Below are positions 17,302 to 46,816 of a stretch of DNA of 64,000 bases, piece after piece (the first letter of the stretch is position 1; every line of letters starts with the position of its first letter). The position numbers and the translations under genes were made by a program. This stretch comes from an uncultured Planctomycetia bacterium (GTDB lineage Bacteria > Omnitrophota > Gorgyraeia > Duberdicusellales > 4484-171), in assembly GCA_964489445.1 (NCBI GenBank), contig CAZAYU010000001.1:375968-439967 (forward strand), read 5' to 3'. Under the pieces are notes generated by a model. It had not been told where the DNA came from. It made no database searches and worked only from the letters and a program-made list of their open reading frames with translations.

Positions 17302-18541
17302 TTAATCATAATCAAAGCATGTAGCTCCACAAAAATTTGATTCATTGCTACTATTGTCCTGATTCCACAACGTCCAATCATTACCTGTTTTGGATACCTT
17401 ACAAAAACAATCAAATCCTCCAGGACCGCCAACTGCAGATAATACACAAAAGTCATGTTCGCCCATATTTGTTGTTTTTGTGCCTGTGATCCTTATAGTA
17501 TTAGAATATTCTGTAGTCGTAAACGAAGATGCTCCACCAAAATCTTTCCAACCTCCACCATCATGATATTTGAAATTAGTATCAACACTATCATAATAAA
17601 TACTACCTGCGCTGCCAGTAGGAGCGCTGGCTTGCGGTTCAAGGTTCAATGTGCCTTCACCGGCCGCTTATTTCAAGTGTCGCTTTCGGATCATCTGTGT
17701 TAATCCCTACCCTCCCATCACTCGTTCCGGTATCTTTTATTCTCATGGTTTCTGCTGAATTCTTTGTGAATAATATTATGTCGGAAGCCTCATCGTTGGG
17801 AGAACTCTTTATATACAGATTTTTATCGTTATGGTGAGTCCAAATTCCACCCTTAAACACGCCTCCTGGACCCCAAAGCCCCAGCCCACAATTAGATGTA
17901 CCATCATCCTCTATACGTATTGCTACAGCATCACTACCATTGCTTGTTCCTTTAATGTGCAGCAACATTTGTGGATCCGTTGTCCCAATGCCGACATTGC
18001 CCTGGTCTGCTCCAGAAGCACCTGTCTGCATATAAATTGGATACTGTCTACCTGTTCCAGACTGCTCTCCTGTATTTAAAATAATCCCGCCTCCCTTAAA
18101 ATTAGTAATCTGTAAATCATAAGGCACAGTGCCTGTATCAGCAACCCAAACCCCGGCTAACTGGCTTCCGTCATTTATATCCATTTCATCGCTAACAGTA
18201 AAACCATAGCAATTACTACCAGTTTGCTTTAAATCGCCAAAAGATAGGTACCCATTGCCCATTGCTATCTGCAAGCGAATGTCAGCACTACCTGGCGCTA
18301 CCCCATCTGAAATCTCTGCTCCCCATTCAGGCATAGGCGTCTCAACATATTCATCACCAATTGCCATTCTTCTTGATCGCAATTCATTATAAATCCCATA
18401 AGGCGCAGGATAATAGGTAATAATTGTAATCTTTTCTTCAGGGATGGTTGTTTCGGCAAAGGAAGACAGAGAAAACATTACTGACAGTAAAAATACGCTT
18501 ACTGAAAAATAAACAATATTCTTTCGAAGAAATAATTTCAT
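17302..18541 (-). pseudogene. Disrupted member of the secreted Gly-rich 'TTIPEERITIITYYPAPYG' paralog family (two ORFs, 17657-18541 and 17302-17649)
   Basis: The upstream ORF ends ...ATLEISGR at a TGA (17657-17659). The downstream ORF, frame-shifted by 7 nt, continues the alignment to the paralog at 18563-20062 (NLEPQASAPTGSAGSIYYD vs ESDVNPGDAGDLYYD). The downstream ORF starts on TTG. Confidence 0.6.
17950..18470. repeat. About 500 bp direct repeat (>90% nt identity) shared by the 5' halves of the tandem paralogs; the partner copy is at about 19470-19970
   Basis: Example: 18231-18290 vs 19751-19800 are near-identical, and 18330-18410 vs 19843-19925 are about 97% identical. Confidence 0.8.
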
Positions 18542-18562
18542 AACTTATCCTCCTTTTTACAA

Positions 18563-20062
18563 TTATCGATAACCGATAATATATATAGATCCAAAAGCAT
18601 TTTTTGTAGTTGAATTTCCTGTCCGTTCAACATACACCTTTTTTCCTGTGGTAACCGGTAACCAGAAATGGTCCGAATTTGTTACCCACGCACTATTGTC
18701 GTATAGCTTATAAAACATATAATTTGCATATTTTTTTGATCCCTCTTTGGTGTAAATCTTTAAAGTCACATTGCCACTACCCAAAGTTCCGCCAATTGAG
18801 GTGTATGCATAAAACAATACCTCCTTAGCATTGGCCGGAACATAAGAGCTGAAACTCTTGACAAAAGAAGAACTAGCGGTAAGTATCGGAAGAACTCCTA
18901 ACAATTTTTTTCCTATGGGAGTCCATGATTTATCCCCTCCAAAATCATTCCAGCTCGTTCCATCGTGATACCGAAATCTATCAGAATCAATGTCATAATA
19001 AAGATCGCCGGCATCACCAGGATTAACGTCTGATTCTGCTTTGGGAGTATAACGTGCCTTTCCATCGAGATAAATGTTTCCTTTAAAATAACCAGCCCAA
19101 TAATTATCCGTATAATCTTTATAACTTAACATGGCGACAGTATTAGGTATCGATGAGCCTATGATTGTCGTTGATTCCATATGGGTTGCAAGTCCAGCAT
19201 TACCTTTAATGTCGTTGACCACCCCAAAAAGACCAAGAGCATGTTCACTTCCTGTGAAACCTCCAACTGCTAAAGCTCCCCGGGTAATTTTATCTGTTGC
19301 GGTATTTGTGTAGGCAACAATACCCGACACTCCACCATCTTTTTTTATCTTAAACTCATTAATTTTCACGCCCATACCTACCGGATAATCACTTCCAAAA
19401 GGAGAAGGAACATCAAACAATCCAGTGCTAATAGTTACATCAATATCGTTTGAATTTTCGATTATCTGCAGCGTTCCTTTAGGATCAACTGTTCCAATAC
19501 CTACATTGCCAGCTGGTAAGGCTCCTGAATCTGTGTATGTTTGCATACAAATTGGATATGGTCTACCTGTTGCAGAATCCTCTTTCGTATTTAAAATAAT
19601 CCCGCCACCAATAAAATTAGTAATCTGTAGATCATAAGGCACAGTACCTGTATCAGCAACCCAAAACCCGGCTAACTGGCTTCCGGCATCTATGTCCATT
19701 GCATCGCTAACAACAAAACCATAACAATTACTACCAGTTTGCTGTAAGTCGCCAAAAGATAGATACCCATTGCCCATTGCTATCTGCAAGCGAATATCAG
19801 CTGTGCTCCCAGAACCATCTGGAATATCCGTTCCCCATTGAGGCATAGGCGTCTCAACATATTCATCGCCAATTGCCATTCTTCTTGATCGCAATTCATT
19901 GTAAATCCCATAAGGCGCAGGATAATAGGTAATAATTGTAATTCTTTCTTCAGGAACACTTGATGCGGCAAAAGAAAAAACAGGAAGTATCAAGAAAGAT
20001 AAAAACATTAATGCTAAACAAAGGCTTAATCTTTTACTCATTATTTTTCCCTCTTTTCTCAT
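18563..20062 (-). CDS. Secreted Gly-rich repeat protein, paralog family member (putative surface fibre/adhesin)
   Basis: Signal peptide (...PVFSFA), then SSVPEERITIITYYPAPYGIYNELRSRRMAIGD, GNVGIGTVDPKG repeats, and the C-terminal LYYDIDSDRFRYHDGTSWNDFGG motif. The true start is probably the internal MSKRL. Confidence 0.7.
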   Translation of the reverse strand: MRKEGKIMSKRLSLCLALMFLSFLILPVFSFAASSVPEERITIITYYPAPYGIYNELRSRRMAIGDEYVETPMPQWGTDIPDGSGSTADIRLQIAMGNGYLSFGDLQQTGSNCYGFVVSDAMDIDAGSQLAGFWVADTGTVPYDLQITNFIGGGIILNTKEDSATGRPYPICMQTYTDSGALPAGNVGIGTVDPKGTLQIIENSNDIDVTISTGLFDVPSPFGSDYPVGMGVKINEFKIKKDGGVSGIVAYTNTATDKITRGALAVGGFTGSEHALGLFGVVNDIKGNAGLATHMESTTIIGSSIPNTVAMLSYKDYTDNYWAGYFKGNIYLDGKARYTPKAESDVNPGDAGDLYYDIDSDRFRYHDGTSWNDFGGDKSWTPIGKKLLGVLPILTASSSFVKSFSSYVPANAKEVLFYAYTSIGGTLGSGNVTLKIYTKEGSKKYANYMFYKLYDNSAWVTNSDHFWLPVTTGKKVYVERTGNSTTKNAFGSIYIIGYR

Positions 20063-21284: not shown

Positions 21285-22277
21285 TTACTCAAATACATAT
21301 ACCCGTTCACCTTGCCCCTCATTACAAACAGCAAAAACCCTCATCGTAGAAATATTCTTGGCCAGAAATTTTCTAATTCCTTCCAGGCCCATAACCGAAA
21401 AAGCAGTAGCTAGACTATCGGTAGTAGTACAATTTTTGCTAATTACACTCACACTCAAAAGACTATTATCTACAGGGTACCCAGTGAGAGGATTAATCAA
21501 ATGGGAATAACGTTTATCCTGATAATCAAAAAATTGTTCATAATTTCCCGAAGTAGACACTGACTCATTCAGTAGCTGCTGATTTTCAATTATTCCTGAT
21601 AATTTTTGTGGATCTCTAACGCCGATATTCCATGTTTTCCCTCTGTTAGTCCCTAGGCAATAGATATCTCCTCCGGCGTTAATCATTGCGTTCTCGACAC
21701 CCTGCTCTTTTAATTTCAAAACTGCTTTATCTACCATATACCCTTTGGCTATCGCGTTTAAATCAACCTTGAGCCCTTGCTTGCTAATGAGTACTGTTTT
21801 ATTCTTTTTATCTATTTTAAGATAGTCCATACCACATTTCTCAGCTAACTTATTAATTTTTTGCTTATCCGGAAATTGCTGAACTCCTTCTTTAATTAAT
21901 TTTTTCCAAAAATCATAAAGCACACCATAGCTTACATCAAACGCACCGCCAGTTAAGCTGGTTAACTGTCTGGACAAGCCTAAAATTTCAATCATCTCAT
22001 CAGAGACTTTCATCGGAATATTATAAGTGTTATTTAATCGAGAAATTTCCGAATCCGGATCGTAAAGATTAAAAATCTTATTCAATCGCTGAAACTCTTT
22101 ATACACAATACCGGCGGCTGGTTTATCAGAAGAAATAACTTCTAAATATGTGCCAGAAACAACGAAAGTATTTTTATGCACTGGAATCGAGCAAGAAGAC
22201 AAAAAGAATAAAACACAAAATAACGCGCCTATTCTTTTAATTTTTTTCACATACATAAAATATCCCATATTATTCAA
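21285..22277 (-). CDS. apbE: FAD:protein FMN transferase ApbE (lipoprotein)
   Basis: Lipobox (LSSCS). ApbE family similarity (FDVSYGVL..., AIAKGYMVDKA). Confidence 0.85.
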   Translation of the reverse strand: MNNMGYFMYVKKIKRIGALFCVLFFLSSCSIPVHKNTFVVSGTYLEVISSDKPAAGIVYKEFQRLNKIFNLYDPDSEISRLNNTYNIPMKVSDEMIEILGLSRQLTSLTGGAFDVSYGVLYDFWKKLIKEGVQQFPDKQKINKLAEKCGMDYLKIDKKNKTVLISKQGLKVDLNAIAKGYMVDKAVLKLKEQGVENAMINAGGDIYCLGTNRGKTWNIGVRDPQKLSGIIENQQLLNESVSTSGNYEQFFDYQDKRYSHLINPLTGYPVDNSLLSVSVISKNCTTTDSLATAFSVMGLEGIRKFLAKNISTMRVFAVCNEGQGERVYVFE

Positions 22278-23085
22278 GTCTTATTTCTGCGCATTTTTTT
22301 AATATTATCTGTCGAGAATCCGCCACATGAACACCTCTGGTTTTGCCCACAGTCAATACTACCGCATTACTAATAGTAAGCTTTCCCGTGGAAGTTATAT
22401 ATAATCCATTAGGCCTAATATTCTTGCTGTGATCCAAAACTACATCTGTATCAATTATCATATCTTTACCTATGTCCGGACAGTCAGGATCAGCAAAATC
22501 AGCTAACCCATCACAATCATTATCTTTTTTATCCAAACAAAGACACCCTTCTTCAAAGTGTAATCCTGCTGCATCCACACGGCAAGCTGTTAACTCGCTA
22601 ATACCGGAAGTTGAAGGGTGTTTAGATGGGGTAGAAGAATTGCAATCACAATAAGAATTACTACTTCCTGGGTTCACCAATGGATTATCACCATCACAAT
22701 CATTACATTGGTCAACATAGCCGTCTTTATCATTATCTGCGCTTTGTCCAGATTGAGGACAACCTGCAGGTGTGCATGTAGAGCAACAAGTCTGATAACA
22801 AGTCTGGTAGCAAGTCTGGTAGCAAGTCTGGCAATTTTCACCTTTAGCATCACAATCACAATCATAAGGATCACAATCATAAGGATTACAATCATAAGGA
22901 TTACAATCATAAGGGGTATCTGTGCAGCTAGTATCTACCCCCGTATCTGCATAGTAAACATTACCGACACATTTCCCATTCTCCCCAGCATTACACTGTT
23001 TAGTACGAGTATCACAAGCATACATCGCCGAGACAAAAAACAACATTAGCGCAATTGTAATAAAAATAATTTTTCCGTTTTTCAT
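22270..23085 (-). CDS. Secreted Cys/Asp-rich tandem-repeat protein (calcium-binding-like)
   Basis: Signal peptide, then (PYDC[ND])x4 and (QTCY)x4 repeats and DxDxDG-like motifs. Overlaps the apbE start by 8 nt. Confidence 0.65.
   Translation of the reverse strand: MKNGKIIFITIALMLFFVSAMYACDTRTKQCNAGENGKCVGNVYYADTGVDTSCTDTPYDCNPYDCNPYDCDPYDCDCDAKGENCQTCYQTCYQTCYQTCCSTCTPAGCPQSGQSADNDKDGYVDQCNDCDGDNPLVNPGSSNSYCDCNSSTPSKHPSTSGISELTACRVDAAGLHFEEGCLCLDKKDNDCDGLADFADPDCPDIGKDMIIDTDVVLDHSKNIRPNGLYITSTGKLTISNAVVLTVGKTRGVHVADSRQIILKKCAEIRLE
22787..22834. repeat. 12-nt tandem repeat, about 4 units (caagtctggtag), in-frame, encoding QTCY
   Basis: Read directly from the sequence. Confidence 0.85.
22857..22916. 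repeat. 15-nt tandem repeat, 4 units ([ct]acaatcataaggat), in-frame, encoding PYDC[ND]
   Basis: Read directly from the sequence. Confidence 0.85.
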
Positions 23086-23142: not shown

Positions 23143-24627
23143 TTATTTTATTAAAATTTCAACTTTTTCTTTGCCTTCTTCTGAATCTTCTAAGGCAATC
23201 CCCACAACTTGAGTAAATATTGTAATTTTATTAACATCTCCCCGCATTGCATAACCTAATTTAGAAGAAGTAACCAAAATATCTCCTTTTTTAACCGGGG
23301 GAACTATTTTGCAATCTACTATTCCATCTAAAGCTAACGGTTTAAGATCCTCACCTTCCTGTTCACCTAAAAGTAAAGATGGTTTTTCTGAGATAACTCC
23401 GGCAACTACTGCTGAATAAGGTTCACTATTTTTTTTAAATTCATTATCATCATTTCCGCCTACCACCACGACATCTCCTGGCTCACATTCCTCACATTTT
23501 ATATTTTCAGCAATATCTCCCTTAATTGTGGAACAAAAAAGAGTGCCGTCTAATCGAATGTCACCCTTAATATCTAATTCTTTCTCAGGATTAGATATTC
23601 CAATACCTACATTACCCTCTTTAGAAATCCATACCCTATCCTTGTGAGATGTTTGGAACCGAATAGGCTCGGCGGCGGCTGTCTTCATTACTAAACCTTT
23701 ACCACCACTAGCAGCAGCTGCAAAGATAGCACCAATATAAGAACCTGAACGGGAAAACAACACCCCAGAATTTTCGCCACCCACAGAATCAATAAATATG
23801 CCTGTATCTTTATCGCTTTTAATATGTAATTTTTGCAGCGGGTTAATAGTCCCGATTCCCACATTACCACCTTTTATAATTGATATACCCTCTCCGTTAT
23901 TTACATCGTCGGCGCTATGGCCAATGCAAATTAAACCGTCTAAATAATCAGAATAGTTAATAGACACCGACTCAGAAAAAACTTTACCTACCGCTAAACC
24001 AACAAAACCACCACTAGGTAATTGAGGTGCAAAAAAAGATGCAATATTTTGAGAATAAGGTTTATTACTTTCCACAGATAACAATTGCCTGGGATCAGTC
24101 GTCCCAATGCCTACATTTCCAAGCTCAATACCGTCACTACCCCAGTTTTGCATGCAAATCGGCTTGCTGTCTCCTTCTAAATATAAAGGGCCCGTACTTG
24201 CTACAGCCATTCCAGCCTCACCCCCGCCATTAATAGAACTCTGCCACCAAACACCCCCACCTGTACTAGCGGTACTAATACTTTGTGTATTGCCAATATG
24301 TAGCCCAACTCCAGTGTCAGAATTCATAGGATTACTATATCCGCCTAAAGAAACATACCTGTTAAGAGCAGAGACCTGCAAACGAATATCCGGTGTTATG
24401 CTTGAAGCTCCGACATCCCATCCAAAAAGATTAGGACTATCAATATAATTGTCTCCAATAGCTACCCTTCTTGCCCGCAATTCATTATACACCCCATAAG
24501 GAGCCGGATAATAAGTGATAATTGTAATTCTTTCTTCAGGGATGGTTGTTTGGGCAAGCACCGGAATAATCCAAATTATTAACATGCTAAACACAAAACT
24601 TAAAATTAATACCCGTTTTTCTTTCAT
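23143..24627 (-). CDS. Secreted Gly-rich repeat protein, paralog family member
   Basis: Signal peptide (...IPVLA), then QTTIPEERITIITYYPAPYGVYNELRARRVAIGD and three GNVGIG(T/I)xxP repeats. The C-terminal region is divergent. Confidence 0.7.
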   Translation of the reverse strand: MKEKRVLILSFVFSMLIIWIIPVLAQTTIPEERITIITYYPAPYGVYNELRARRVAIGDNYIDSPNLFGWDVGASSITPDIRLQVSALNRYVSLGGYSNPMNSDTGVGLHIGNTQSISTASTGGGVWWQSSINGGGEAGMAVASTGPLYLEGDSKPICMQNWGSDGIELGNVGIGTTDPRQLLSVESNKPYSQNIASFFAPQLPSGGFVGLAVGKVFSESVSINYSDYLDGLICIGHSADDVNNGEGISIIKGGNVGIGTINPLQKLHIKSDKDTGIFIDSVGGENSGVLFSRSGSYIGAIFAAAASGGKGLVMKTAAAEPIRFQTSHKDRVWISKEGNVGIGISNPEKELDIKGDIRLDGTLFCSTIKGDIAENIKCEECEPGDVVVVGGNDDNEFKKNSEPYSAVVAGVISEKPSLLLGEQEGEDLKPLALDGIVDCKIVPPVKKGDILVTSSKLGYAMRGDVNKITIFTQVVGIALEDSEEGKEKVEILIK

Positions 24628-24641
24628 ACTCCCCCCGTTAT

Positions 24642-24681
24642 TATTTCCCGCCGAAGGCGGATCCGCCTTCGGCGGGAAATA
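24642..24681. promoter_or_regulatory. 40-bp perfect GC-rich palindrome with nested sub-hairpins, 14 nt upstream of the SD/ATG of the 23143-24627 gene and downstream of queF
   Basis: tatttcccgccgaaggcggatccgccttcggcgggaaata. No U-tract follows on either strand. Confidence 0.5.
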
Positions 24682-24853
24682 GTTAAATGGTTAATCTTTA
24701 TTGTGCTTAGGGATTACTAAGGATTATGGATTATGTGATAAGAAATAGAAACCAAAAACATTTCGGTTTGGCTTAATTTTTCTCTTCTTAGCCTCATCCT
24801 TCGTCCCTCTTCCATCATCTATCGTCCGTCTTTCATCATCTGTCTTTACTGCT

Positions 24854-45514: not shown

Positions 45515-46816
45515 CTAAGGACCACAACAAACTGTAATCTGATAACCATGGCCACTATCCCCCGTCCTACTATCATCAAGATTACTAAAAAATCCTATTG
45601 TTTTCGGACCTTCTTTGGTTGGCGCCCAAGAAGGACAATCATGTCCCGTCCTTTTTAATACGCAGAAACCACCAGATAACTGCCCAAAATCTTTCCAACT
45701 GAATGCATCATGGTAATTGAATTTATCATCATCCGTATTATAGATAAGTGATCCTTCCGCGGGATTTGGAATCGCATCCCGTTTATTTTTAGCCATCCGA
45801 GGAGGAACAAACCCACTGGTAGTAGAAGTTATATCAAGTACTGCTTTAGGGTCTGTCGTTCCAATGCCGACATTGCCCTCTCTTTTTATGATCATTTGTG
45901 TAGTTTGAGGCTGCGCTGCAGCAGGCCATTTGGGGGTAGTCACAAAATGTAAATCTTGAAGAACTCCGATAGCAAAATCCCCCTTTTTCATATCACTGCC
46001 AAAAGCCGTATCGTATGTTCCTGTGCCCAACCAGCCACCACCATTAGAACCAGGAATACCACTACCTGAACTTTCAAACCAAAGCCCAGCTGTCTTTGCT
46101 TCTCCTCCGTCCGGCAAAGTGGTCCCGTCAGCAATAAAAACAGCTGTGTAATCAAGGCCTCCAATATTTTTTCCTATTACCTGAAGCACTGGTTCTGGTG
46201 AACCAGACCCATCCTTACTAGTAATTATTACATTTGCTCCCGGATAAGTGTTGCGAACAGAGTCTGTAGCCCGAAAATAATGCCGTTCAGCATCATAATA
46301 TATGGAATTAGACACGGAGGTACCATTTCCGTCTTTACCATATGAACCAAAAATCTCCATGTTTGTCCCGCCGTTTCCATCTGTATGACCAAAAGTTATA
46401 GTATCATTGCTTTGCCTTGCACCACTATTTCCAGAAACAAGGAGAAAGGTTCCATCAGGATTACTTGAGTTTGTATAAGAAGCACTCAATAAATAATTTG
46501 AGGCGTTTGTAGTACCGATTCCTAATCCATTAGCTATCAATGCCTGACCTCTTTTATCTAAATCAGTAGGATCAGGGGCATCATCAATATCTATATCTCC
46601 GCTGGCATTAGTATCTCCTACGCCTAAAGTTCTAGTTACTAAACGGTTATACACACCAAAAGGCGCAGGGTAATAAGTAATAATTGTAATTCTTTCTTCA
46701 GGGATGGTTGTTTGGGCAAAAGAAAAAATAGGAAACATCAAGAAAGATAAAAGCATAAACAATAAACAAAATATTAATCTTTTATTCATTATTTTTCCCT
46801 CCTTTTTTTTACACAT
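45515..46816 (-). CDS. Secreted Gly-rich repeat protein, paralog family member
   Basis: Signal peptide nearly identical to the 18563-20062 copy (KEGKIMNKRL...IFSFA). Then QTTIPEERITIITYYPAPFGVYN, GNVGIGTTDPKA, and a C-terminal LIYNTDDDKFNYHDAFSWKDFG motif with a Cys-rich tail (...VCCGP). Confidence 0.7.
   Translation of the reverse strand: MCKKKEGKIMNKRLIFCLLFMLLSFLMFPIFSFAQTTIPEERITIITYYPAPFGVYNRLVTRTLGVGDTNASGDIDIDDAPDPTDLDKRGQALIANGLGIGTTNASNYLLSASYTNSSNPDGTFLLVSGNSGARQSNDTITFGHTDGNGGTNMEIFGSYGKDGNGTSVSNSIYYDAERHYFRATDSVRNTYPGANVIITSKDGSGSPEPVLQVIGKNIGGLDYTAVFIADGTTLPDGGEAKTAGLWFESSGSGIPGSNGGGWLGTGTYDTAFGSDMKKGDFAIGVLQDLHFVTTPKWPAAAQPQTTQMIIKREGNVGIGTTDPKAVLDITSTTSGFVPPRMAKNKRDAIPNPAEGSLIYNTDDDKFNYHDAFSWKDFGQLSGGFCVLKRTGHDCPSWAPTKEGPKTIGFFSNLDDSRTGDSGHGYQITVCCGP

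What the first reader, a model, noticed from the sequence alone, without database searches (positions are those of the whole stretch)
17950..20062. Tandem duplication with >90% identical 5' halves and conserved ~70-bp 5' segments across all four paralogs: substrate for gene conversion or antigenic variation
The 5' ~500 bp of the 17657-18541 and 18563-20062 genes are about 90-97% identical at the DNA level, while their 3' parts diverge. All four paralogs, including 24494-24560 and 46655-46720, share a near-identical DNA segment encoding the ITIITYYPAPYG module. Conserved recombinogenic cassettes flanking variable regions are the classic arrangement for surface-protein variation by homologous recombination.
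Basis: seen in the sequence. Interest (0 to 1): 0.6.

Follow-up and report, generated by a model that had tools for sequence, protein, structure and literature searches.

The report
Swappable surface-fibre gene family in Omnitrophota
The four repeated gene starts belong to a family of secreted, phage-tail-fibre-like surface fibres of an uncultured, probably Omnitrophota, bacterium; they share one constant N-terminal module and carry different tips, have exchanged pieces by recombination in the past, and show no sign of an active antigenic-variation switch.

Summary
The repeats are real, but the identity was overstated. A and B share a ~500-nt tract at 85-88% identity, reaching 90-97% only in sub-windows. 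Their signal-peptide regions are unrelated. A ~70-nt segment occurs in exactly four genes.

The segment encodes a ~35-aa module (TITTYYPAPYGVYxELRSRRMAIG) placed just after the signal peptide. It defines a large, uncurated family: 3269 cluster representatives, almost all from Candidatus Omnitrophota, with several copies per genome.

The shaft repeats (GNVGIGT) and B's tip are homologous to Bdellovibrio 'mosaic adhesive trimer' (MAT) fibres. B's tip matches Bd2133 (PDB 8ok3) at E 3e-12.

Synonymous sites support past exchange between paralogs:
- A-B tract: dS 0.30, against saturation beyond it.
- B-D signal peptide: dS 0.15, against 1.15-2.2 further on.
- Module codon identity: 72% within this genome, against 41% between genomes.

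Another genome (L060) holds a perfect 351-nt tract that ends at the GxVGI motif.

Against programmed variation:
- All copies have their own start and signal peptide.
- There are no silent cassettes, invertible elements or DGR repeats.
- At least 15 independent assemblies are 100% identical with the same gene order, apart from two SNPs.

Gene A carries a +1 frameshift present in every assembly that covers it.

Verdict: an Omnitrophota variant of MAT-like host- or prey-binding fibres that evolves by mosaic recombination.

The parts
18563..20062 (-). Paralog B, 499 aa, apparently intact. Order of parts: signal peptide, N-terminal module, A/B-type N-domain, GNVGIGT shaft, YYD..F.YHDG..W.DFGG neck, Bd2133-type tip.
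   Evidence: ORF. Family membership. PDB match.
18566..18937 (-). Tip domain of B (aa 376-499), homologous to the beta-sandwich tip of the Bdellovibrio bacteriovorus MAT fibre Bd2133.
   Evidence: phmmer against PDB 8ok3_A: E 3.3e-12, end-to-end alignment of query 376-499 with chain 3-125.
17657..18541 (-). Paralog A, 5' part (294-aa ORF): signal peptide, module, A/B-type N-domain and two GNVGIGT-type rungs. It ends at a TGA created by a frameshift.
   Evidence: PHROGs tail-fibre hits on aa 178-291.
17302..17667 (-). Paralog A, 3' part in the +1 frame (neck and Cys-rich tip). The frameshift lies within about 17659-17667 (GGCCGGTGA). The listed ORF is 17302-17649.
   Evidence: Sequence read. 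It aligns to residues 292-408 of family member P0005 at E 2e-15. The same split (294 aa + 115 aa) occurs in at least 14 contigs from many samples.
23143..24627 (-). Paralog C, 494 aa: signal peptide, module, related N-domain, four GNVGIGT rungs and a different C-terminal domain.
   Evidence: Matches the PDB 8ond beta-helix at E 1.4e-5. Matches PHROGs tail fibre phrog_9942 at 1.6e-12.
45515..46816 (-). Paralog D, 433 aa: signal peptide, D-type module (..YNRLVTRTLGVGD), shaft, neck and a small Cys-rich tip.
   Evidence: A precomputed PF26696 PTL_trimer hit is listed.
18334..18459 (-). Module-coding DNA segment in A (core 18402-18439).
19846..19954 (-). Module-coding DNA segment in B (core 19914-19951).
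24432..24557 (-). Module-coding DNA segment in C (core 24500-24537).
46647..46738 (-). Module-coding DNA segment in D (core 46662-46699).
17973..18464 (-). A copy of the A-B shared tract (A nt 78-569). It is bounded 5' by the end of the signal peptide and 3' by the first GNVGIGT motif.
   Evidence: blastn 84.9% over 502 nt. dS 0.30 and dN 0.10 inside the tract, dS above 1 beyond it.
19482..19976 (-). B copy of the A-B shared tract (B nt 87-581).
19908..20057 (-). B copy of the B-D shared 5' tract (signal peptide and start of the module). The D copy is 46656-46805.
   Evidence: blastn 84.7% over 150 nt. 18 of 19 same-residue codons are identical in the signal peptide. dS is 0.15 there, 1.15 in the module and 2.2 beyond.
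18939..18997 (-). Neck motif (YYD..F.YHDG..W.DFG) in B, a weaker conserved island also present at 17537-17595 (A 3' part) and 45684-45742 (D).
   Evidence: Repeat family D3, 64-75% identity.

Best explanation
What the genes are. The four genes are paralogs of a large gene family specific to Candidatus Omnitrophota. They encode secreted fibres that resemble phage tail fibres. Each protein has these parts in order:
- a signal peptide;
- a constant ~35-aa module at the mature N-terminus (TITTYYPAPYGVYxELRSRRMAIG);
- a shaft built from GNVGIGTxxPxxxLxV rungs;
- often a YYD..YHDG..W..FGG neck;
- a tip domain that differs from copy to copy.

How they probably work (inferred). By analogy with the Bdellovibrio MAT fibres and with phage tail fibres, the constant module probably docks or assembles the fibre at the cell surface. 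The variable tips probably bind different ligands on host or prey cells. The genome would then carry a repertoire of binding specificities expressed in parallel.

Why DNA identity is seen. It arises in two ways:
- The module is under very strong protein-level constraint.
- The conserved motifs (module, GNVGIGT rung, neck) have acted as junctions for occasional homologous exchange or partial duplication between paralogs. This produced mosaics. B has a D-like signal peptide, an A-like N-domain and a Bd2133-like tip.

This is evolutionary shuffling at low frequency. It is not a programmed switch. In this population the arrangement is fixed, and paralog A has been inactivated or truncated by a frameshift.
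For: Shown here:
- Family and module. All 27 homologues of B carry the module right after a signal peptide and have varied C-termini, including Peptidase_S74, YadA_head and UspA1 repeats.
- Family size. A 40-position profile finds 3269 cluster representatives at E <= 1e-3. The module always starts at residues ~8-57.
- Taxonomy. 261 confirmed hits in species-representative genomes. Of the 78 loci returned, 51 are named Omnitrophota and 22 are TPA MAGs labelled Planctomycetia. Several copies occur per genome, some in tandem.
- Not viral. No copy in 2.9 M viral contigs.
- MAT homology. B's tip matches Bd2133 (8ok3) at E 3e-12 end to end. The family profile hits Bd2133 rungs at E 1.6e-7, and Bd1334, Bd3182 and Bd2439 weakly. 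C hits 8ond at 1.4e-5. PHROGs gives tail-fibre hits.
- MAT description. Signal peptide, constant N-domain, trimeric fibre and swapped tips; Bd2133 and Bd1334 are 75% identical before unrelated tips; one Omnitrophica protein is listed as a MAT (PMC10769870).
- Recombination. Segment-specific dS and codon-identity contrasts. A perfect 351-nt tract in L060 ends exactly at the G-R-V-G-I motif.
- Fixed arrangement. L001-L004 and L089-L099 are 100% identical to the window, apart from 2 SNPs in L094.

Inferred: surface display, trimer formation, the anchoring role of the module, and binding to host or prey.
Against: - No experiment or structure supports the anchoring role. AlphaFold2 monomer models were poor (B: mean pLDDT 51; module region: 52-62), so the fold of the module is unknown.
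- Homology of the module to the ~130-aa MAT N-domain could not be tested. No Bdellovibrio full-length sequence could be retrieved, and the AlphaFold-database fold library was not available.
- Trimerisation was not tested.
- The Omnitrophota assignment of this window is indirect. It rests on the family's distribution, composition, and a giant gene near a probable fifth paralog.
- Recent lineage-specific duplication followed by very fast divergence outside the module could mimic part of the codon-identity signal.
- Consensus assemblies cannot exclude rare recombinant subpopulations.
Confidence: 0.7

Rival explanations
1. Programmed antigenic or phase variation. The conserved 5' cassette mediates frequent gene conversion between paralogs, so that the exposed part of a surface protein changes within a population. 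The frameshifted gene A would serve as a donor cassette.
For: - Unsaturated synonymous sites and a mosaic pattern of identity among paralogs.
- Perfect-identity blocks of 40-41 nt for A-B and C-D.
- One copy (A) is a frameshifted gene next to an intact one.
- A perfect 351-nt tract between tandem paralogs in another genome.
- Several short contigs end inside B or A, and both SNPs seen lie in B's neck and tip.
Against: - At least 15 assemblies from different samples are 100% identical with the same order panB-B-A-purB. None holds a chimeric allele.
- The 90%-identity clusters of A-D hold only the same sequences or fragments.
- All copies have their own start and signal peptide, so there is no expression site plus promoterless cassettes.
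- Strong homology exists on one side only.
- The A-B tract has 12-15% divergence (dS 0.30), so the exchange is old.
- No recombinase, invertible repeat or DGR-type TR/VR pair lies nearby.
Confidence: 0.07
2. Coding constraint only. The shared DNA reflects purifying selection on an essential peptide together with AT-rich codon bias. The paralogs are old and there has been no exchange between them.
For: - The module is nearly invariant at protein level across thousands of proteins.
- Between genomes, codon identity at conserved residues (41%) is close to the codon-usage expectation (38%). No DNA- or RNA-level element is therefore needed.
- No Rfam family matches in the window.
Against: - Within this genome, codon identity in the module is 72% against 42% expected. 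Rare codons (ACC, ATC, GCG) are shared.
- A-C: module 21/30 against downstream 22/63 (p 0.002). A-D: 17/23 against 21/59 (p 0.003).
- The weakly constrained B-D signal peptide has 18 of 19 identical codons and dS 0.15.
- The A-B tract begins abruptly after unrelated signal peptides.
Confidence: 0.12
3. Prophage remnants. The genes are tail-fibre genes left by integrated phages, and the repeats reflect phage mosaicism.
For: - PHROGs tail-fibre hits on the shafts of A and C.
- Peptidase_S74 tips in family members.
Against: - Each copy sits among housekeeping genes (purB, panB, apbE, queF, scpA, trpS, infB) with no other phage gene nearby.
- All copies have signal peptides.
- The module is absent from 2.9 M viral contigs.
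- The family is present in most Omnitrophota genomes sampled, at several loci each.
Confidence: 0.03

Closest known systems
Mosaic adhesive trimer (MAT) fibres of Bdellovibrio bacteriovorus (Caulton et al. 2024, Nat Microbiol, PMC10769870; PDB 8ok3, 8ond, 8oml, 8ojn, 8ol4)
   Same: - The layout is the same: a signal peptide, a constant N-terminal part, a shaft with GNVGIGT-type rungs, and tips that differ between many paralogs in one genome (S74 and non-S74 tips).
- B's tip is a sequence homologue of the Bd2133 tip (E 3e-12).
- The shaft rungs match Bd2133, Bd1334, Bd3182 and Bd2439.
- Paralog pairs share the N-terminal part and then switch tip. Bd2133 and Bd1334 are 75% identical, much as A and B are here.
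- The paper lists one Omnitrophica protein as a MAT.
   Different: - These proteins are much shorter: 300-500 aa against ~1000 aa.
- The constant part is a ~35-aa module, sometimes followed by a ~110-aa domain, and not the ~130-aa beta-rich MAT N-domain. Homology between the two could not be tested.
- The module has no Pfam, NCBIfam or PDB match.
- Surface display, trimer formation and prey binding are shown for Bdellovibrio and are only inferred here.
Phage tail fibres and tailspikes (constant baseplate-attachment N-terminus, exchangeable receptor-binding C-terminus, S74 intramolecular chaperone)
   Same: - The shaft is homologous to phage tail-fibre families (PHROGs phrog_9942 and phrog_18345).
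- Family members carry Peptidase_S74 tips.
- Evolution is mosaic, by exchange at conserved junctions.
   Different: - The genes are cellular. They have Sec-type signal peptides and are dispersed among housekeeping genes.
- The N-terminal module is absent from viral contigs.
Gene-conversion antigenic variation systems (Neisseria pilE/pilS, Borrelia vlsE, Mycoplasma mgpB/MgPar, Treponema tprK); comparison drawn from general knowledge
   Same: - Several copies share conserved segments next to variable segments.
- There is evidence of past tract exchange.
- One copy is defective.
   Different: - There is no single expression locus with promoterless cassettes.
- Homology is strong on one side only.
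- Tracts are old (dS 0.15-0.30).
- The arrangement and sequence are fixed across many samples.

Membership tests
MAT (mosaic adhesive trimer) fibre superfamily | N-terminal signal peptide (secreted, surface displayed) | tested here: inconclusive
   All four proteins start with a basic n-region, a hydrophobic stretch and an A-x-A-like end (SFA/E, SFA/A, VLA/Q, SFA/Q). AlphaFold2 predicts helix 10-31 in B. No signal-peptide predictor was available, and surface display was not tested.
MAT (mosaic adhesive trimer) fibre superfamily | Conserved beta-rich N-terminal domain of ~130 aa immediately after the signal peptide | not testable with these tools
   A constant module does follow the signal peptide, but it is ~35 aa. 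A, B, C and P0002 have a further ~110-aa domain. No Bdellovibrio N-domain sequence or model could be obtained. The module has no PDB, Pfam or NCBIfam match.
MAT (mosaic adhesive trimer) fibre superfamily | Beta-helical fibre shaft homologous to that of MAT and phage fibres | tested here: met
   The family profile matches Bd2133 rungs at E 1.6e-7 in three stretches, with weaker hits to Bd1334, Bd3182 and Bd2439. C matches 8ond at 1.4e-5. PHROGs gives tail-fibre hits.
MAT (mosaic adhesive trimer) fibre superfamily | Variable C-terminal tip, S74 or non-S74, differing among paralogs | tested here: met
   B's tip matches the Bd2133 tip at E 3e-12. A, C and D have three other C-termini. Family members carry Peptidase_S74, YadA_head and UspA1 repeats.
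MAT (mosaic adhesive trimer) fibre superfamily | Homotrimer formation | not testable with these tools
   Only monomer prediction was available. The low pLDDT is uninformative.
Cassette-type antigenic variation by gene conversion | One expression site plus silent, promoterless or truncated donor cassettes | tested here: not met
   All four copies have start codons and signal peptides. A Shine-Dalgarno-like AAGGAGG was read upstream of A only. No further module copies or fragments exist in the 64 kb.
Cassette-type antigenic variation by gene conversion | Sequence heterogeneity or mosaic alleles of the locus within and between populations | tested here: not met
   L001-L004 and L089-L099 come from different samples and are 100% identical to the window with the same gene order. 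The only differences are 2 SNPs in L094, which are not derived from a paralog. This is consensus level only; reads were not available.
Cassette-type antigenic variation by gene conversion | Conserved segments on both sides of the variable region with enough identity for recombination | tested here: inconclusive
   The 5' module is 82-92% identical, with perfect blocks of 21-41 nt. The 3' neck motif is only 64-75% identical and is absent from C.

The most novel reading that the evidence does not exclude
The TYYPAPYG module is an undescribed, phylum-specific N-terminal docking or sorting element. It would mount a swappable repertoire of host- or prey-recognition fibres on the surface of Omnitrophota nanobacteria. 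The same conserved coding segment, together with the GNVGIGT rungs, would serve as the recombination handle through which signal peptides, N-domains and tips are shuffled within and between genomes. One such tip is shared with the predator Bdellovibrio. The family would then be the host-range determinant of an uncultured predatory or parasitic phylum.
Probability: 0.35. Interest if true: 0.7.

Novelty: new variant of a known kind. Interest (0 to 1): 0.45.

Why it matters
Omnitrophota are uncultured, ultra-small bacteria suspected of predatory or parasitic lifestyles. So far only their giant proteins have been discussed as adhesins (PMC10066038; bioRxiv 10.1101/2023.11.21.568195).

A multi-copy family of small fibres would give concrete candidates for host recognition. 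These fibres have a phylum-specific constant module, MAT-type shafts and exchangeable tips, one of which is homologous to a Bdellovibrio prey-handling fibre tip. The candidates are testable.

The family would also provide a sequence marker (the module) for the phylum. It offers a natural example of mosaic evolution at conserved motif junctions.

For genome annotation, the work adds an uncurated N-terminal module with more than 3000 cluster representatives. It also warns that the repeated 5' segments are not evidence of an antigenic-variation switch.

Tried and rejected
1. Pfam and NCBIfam scans of A, B, C and D gave no hits.
2. The AlphaFold2 model of full-length B was unusable (pLDDT 51). A model of the N-terminal 100 aa of a typical member (P0018 segment, 66-row alignment) left the module at pLDDT 52-62. 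Its Foldseek search of the PDB gave only non-significant hits (E > 3), all but one to Bdellovibrio fibres.
3. The afdb50 fold library was unavailable. The comparison with the MAT N-domain therefore failed.
4. Word-indexed protein searches with B's tip fragment found nothing. The same search with the Bd2133 tip found only a 116-aa fragment. No full-length Bdellovibrio MAT sequence was obtained.
5. A metagenome scan for the A/B-type N-domain found only two distant relatives. No orthologous loci were available for a formal test of concerted evolution.
6. I asked whether the 271-aa Cys-rich gene downstream of C is a conserved partner. It has no similarity to the gene downstream of P0002.
7. An RNA or DNA element in the conserved segment was rejected. 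There is no Rfam hit and no between-genome excess of synonymous identity.
8. An invertible promoter or DGR was rejected. No suitable inverted repeats or TR/VR-like pairs exist.
9. Programmed +1 ribosomal frameshifting in A was judged unlikely. This is an inference from the sequence: GGC CGG TGA offers no re-pairing slippery codon, and there is no homopolymer.
10. A prophage origin was rejected (and gene context).
11. Direct taxonomic naming of the window failed, because the clusters carry no names.
Full report
**1. The observation**

The window is AT-rich (36% G+C) with a strong strand bias. Forty-two ORFs of at least 200 aa on the minus strand cover 50.5 of the 64 kb.

Four minus-strand genes share a 5' segment:

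| Paralog | Coordinates | Length |
|---|---|---|
| A | 17657-18541 | 294 aa |
| B | 18563-20062 | 499 aa |
| C | 23143-24627 | 494 aa |
| D | 45515-46816 | 433 aa |

- A 38-nt degenerate pattern for the segment hits exactly these four places with at most 2 mismatches. None is expected in shuffles.
- Pairwise identity around the segment is 82-92% over 73-126 nt.
- It is the main repeat family of the window.

A and B lie 21 nt apart and share an internal tract:
- blastn gives 84.9% over 502 nt, and megablast gives 87.8% over 442 nt.
- The best 264 nt are 90% identical.
- Successive 60-nt windows from the gene starts read 0.45, 0.63, 0.95, 0.97, 0.70, 0.93, 0.88, 0.92, 0.83, 0.65, and then about 0.5.

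The first ~80 nt, which encode the signal peptides, are unrelated.

A is not a complete gene:
- Its TGA is followed, in the +1 frame, by ORF 17302-17649.
- The product of that ORF aligns with the C-terminal neck and tip of family member P0005 (E 2e-15).
- The shift lies in GGCCGGTGA at about 17659-17667.

**2. What the segment encodes**

The segment encodes the mature N-terminus: (T)TIPEE(R/K)ITIITYYPAPYG(I/V)YNELR.RR.AIG.

Family membership:
- A search with B returned 28 proteins, 27 besides B itself. All 27 carry this module directly after a signal peptide.
- After the module most continue with ..ADLVVEGNVGIGT.. rungs and then very different C-termini. These include Peptidase_S74, YadA_head, UspA1 repeats and small Cys-rich domains.
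- Pfam and NCBIfam do not cover the module.

Family size and distribution:
- A 40-position profile scored against 1.84 billion cluster representatives finds 3269 proteins at E <= 1e-3 and 708 at E <= 1e-10. The module always starts at residues ~8-57.
- Among species-representative genomes there are 261 confirmed matches. Of the 78 loci returned, 51 are named Omnitrophota or Omnitrophica and 22 are third-party MAGs labelled 'uncultured Planctomycetia'. Only a handful carry other labels.
- Genomes carry several copies, dispersed or in tandem.
- The module is absent from 2.9 million viral contigs.

The window's organism is therefore most probably an Omnitrophota bacterium. This is an inference. 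It fits the co-occurring contigs of equal composition that carry a likely fifth paralog (P0002) next to a 19,512-aa gene.

**3. What the proteins resemble**

- B's last 124 residues align end to end with the beta-sandwich tip of Bd2133 (PDB 8ok3/8ond; E 3.3e-12).
- The family profile matches the beta-helix rungs of Bd2133 (E 1.6e-7, three stretches). It matches Bd1334, Bd3182 and Bd2439 more weakly.
- C matches 8ond at 1.4e-5.
- The shafts of A and C match phage tail-fibre PHROGs.

These Bdellovibrio proteins are the 'mosaic adhesive trimer' (MAT) family of Caulton et al. 2024 (PMC10769870):
- There are 21 paralogs. Each has a signal peptide, a constant ~130-aa N-domain, a trimeric fibre, and an S74 or other tip.
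- They are surface displayed, and one binds prey glycans.
- Bd2133 and Bd1334 are 75% identical until the tip, which has been exchanged.
- Supplementary Table S3 of that paper lists one Omnitrophica protein among diverse MATs.
- No paper in the library links Omnitrophota to this family beyond that table.

The window proteins are shorter than the Bdellovibrio MATs. Their constant part is a ~35-aa module. I could not test whether it is related to the MAT N-domain.

Monomer AlphaFold2 models were poor. The model of B had a mean pLDDT of 51. The module region scored 52-62, while the following loop and first rung reached 76-88.

**4. Is the DNA identity more than coding constraint?**

Yes, within genomes.

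Codon identity at residues conserved between two copies, within the module:

| Comparison | Observed | Expected from codon usage |
|---|---|---|
| Within this window | 72% | 42% |
| Within 15 other genomes | 57% | 38% |
| Between genomes | 41% | 38% |

- The window copies share rare codons (ACC, ATC, GCG).
- The between-genome result shows that no DNA- or RNA-level element is conserved across the phylum. No Rfam family matches either.
- The excess is therefore shared recent ancestry of that segment within a genome.

Within gene pairs the signal is local:

| Pair | Segment | Identical codons or dS |
|---|---|---|
| A-C | module vs downstream | 21/30 vs 22/63 (p 0.002) |
| A-D | module vs downstream | 17/23 vs 21/59 (p 0.003) |
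| A-B | tract (codons 27-175) vs beyond | dS 0.30, dN 0.10 vs dS > 1 |
| B-D | signal peptide | 18/19 identical; dS 0.15 |
| B-D | next 33 codons, then the rest | dS 1.15, then 2.2 |

B is thus D-like in its first ~130 nt and A-like from nt 87 to 581. Beyond that it is unique, ending in a Bd2133-like tip. The A-B tract is bounded by the module on the 5' side and by the first GNVGIGT motif on the 3' side.

In another Omnitrophota genome (L060, JBAZGN010000007.1), two of three tandem paralogs share a perfect 351-nt tract. It comprises 85 nt upstream plus 266 nt of coding sequence. It ends exactly at the G-R-V-G-I motif, after which similarity is lost.

Exchange or partial duplication with breakpoints at the conserved motifs is therefore a recurrent way in which this family evolves.

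**5. Is it an antigenic-variation system?**

The evidence is against a programmed, frequent process.

- Every copy has its own start and signal peptide, and A is preceded by AAGGAGG. There are no additional partial copies in 64 kb.
- Strong homology lies only on the 5' side. The neck motif shared by A's 3' part, B and D is 64-75% identical.
- Perfect identity blocks are 41 nt (A-B), 40 nt (C-D), 26 nt (B-D) and 21-23 nt (other pairs). From general knowledge, these lengths are near the minimum for RecA-type recombination. The 12-15% divergence of the A-B tract would further depress it.
- No invertible repeats or DGR-type repeat pairs are present.
- Independent assemblies agree. Fifteen contigs from a dozen or so JGI and ENA samples cover parts of these loci. 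All are 100.000% identical to the window and have the same gene order.
- The one exception is L094. It has two non-synonymous SNPs in B's neck and tip (window 19012 and 18885), and neither is derived from a paralog.
- The split of gene A (294 aa + 115 aa) is on record in at least 14 contigs. It is therefore real and fixed.
- The 90% clusters of A-D contain no alleles apart from fragments and one A-tip variant with two substitutions.

Consensus assemblies cannot exclude rare variants. Several short contigs end inside B or A, which might reflect local strain heterogeneity. This point needs read-level data.

**6. Most likely function and mechanism**

Shown:
- The genes form a secreted-type, fibre-like, multi-paralog family with a constant N-terminal module and variable tips.
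- There is homology to the MAT shaft and to one MAT tip.
- There are mosaic recombination footprints.
- The locus is fixed in this population.

Inferred:
- The fibres are displayed on the Omnitrophota surface.
- The module docks or nucleates them there.
- The tips bind different host or prey surface ligands, giving a parallel repertoire and not a switching one.
- A is a recently inactivated member. Its dN/dS of about 0.35 against B argues that it was functional for most of its history.

**7. Novelty and score**

The kind of system, MAT or tail-fibre-like mosaic adhesins, is known, and one Omnitrophica example has been listed. The following appear to be undescribed:
- the phylum-wide ~35-aa module;
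- the short architecture;
- the Bd2133-type tip in Omnitrophota;
- the quantified within-genome homogenisation.

I rate this a new variant of a known kind, with interest 0.45. It is a useful lead for the biology of an uncultured phylum.

Noticed in passing
window 24642-24681: A perfect 40-nt palindrome (TATTTCCCGCCGAAGGCGGA/TCCGCCTTCGGCGGGAAATA) lies 15 nt upstream of gene C's start, between queF and C. It is G+C-rich in an AT-rich genome and is made of two nested hairpins. It is unique in the window. No T-run follows it on either strand, so it is not a canonical terminator.
   Followed up: partly
window 22270-23085 (-): A 271-aa secreted-type, Cys-rich protein lies directly downstream of C. 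It has no Pfam family and no similarity to the gene downstream of P0002. It contains in-frame tandem DNA repeats, 12 nt x 3.9 (CYQT) at 22785-22831 and 15 nt x 4 (PYDCN) at 22855-22914. These could vary in length.
   Followed up: partly
window 19012 and 18885 (gene B neck and tip); locus L094: The only differences found among independent assemblies are two SNPs in sample ERZ27315652. Both are non-synonymous (Ala>Thr in PGDAGDLYYD, Ile>Thr in LPILTAS) and both lie in B's neck and tip. A tip allele of A's 3' ORF with Y48C and T57R also exists (P0164). This hints at diversifying selection on tips, but the sample is tiny.
   Followed up: partly
window 23427 (gene C, after an A8 run); locus L100: Contig ERZ27315617:k141_99127 is identical to the window up to 23427. 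That point lies just after AAAAAAAATA inside gene C. Its last 126 nt are unrelated, which gives a 401-aa truncated product (P0166). This may be an assembly chimera or a structural variant; it was not resolved.
   Followed up: partly
window ~12487; locus L091: Contig ERZ27316143:k141_45909 matches the window at 100% down to 12487, inside the purQ-like GATase gene. Its last 279 nt still encode a GATase C-terminus but have no DNA match in the window. This may be a chimera with a related organism or a recombinant strain.
   Followed up: no
L005-L008 (contigs from the same samples as the window): P0002 (316 aa) is a probable fifth paralog with the same module and A/B-type N-domain and a precomputed PF26696 PTL_trimer hit. 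It lies on contigs with the same G+C (35.3%) and skew, a few genes downstream of a gene whose product is recorded as 19,512 aa.
   Followed up: partly
L060 5294-7389 (JBAZGN010000007.1): Three tandem family genes. Genes 2 and 3 share a perfect 351-nt tract that includes 85 nt upstream. In the gene-2 copy that upstream part is the 3' end of gene 1. The tract ends at the G-R-V-G-I motif. This is a very recent segmental duplication or conversion.
   Followed up: yes
window 1-64000: Gene orientation is extreme: 42 ORFs of at least 200 aa, covering 50.5 kb, all lie on the minus strand. GC skew is about -0.24 throughout, with no switch. No tRNA, rRNA or other Rfam family reaches threshold in 64 kb.
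   Followed up: no
window 24794-24841: A 21-nt x 2.3 tandem repeat lies in the intergenic region between queF and gene C.
   Followed up: no
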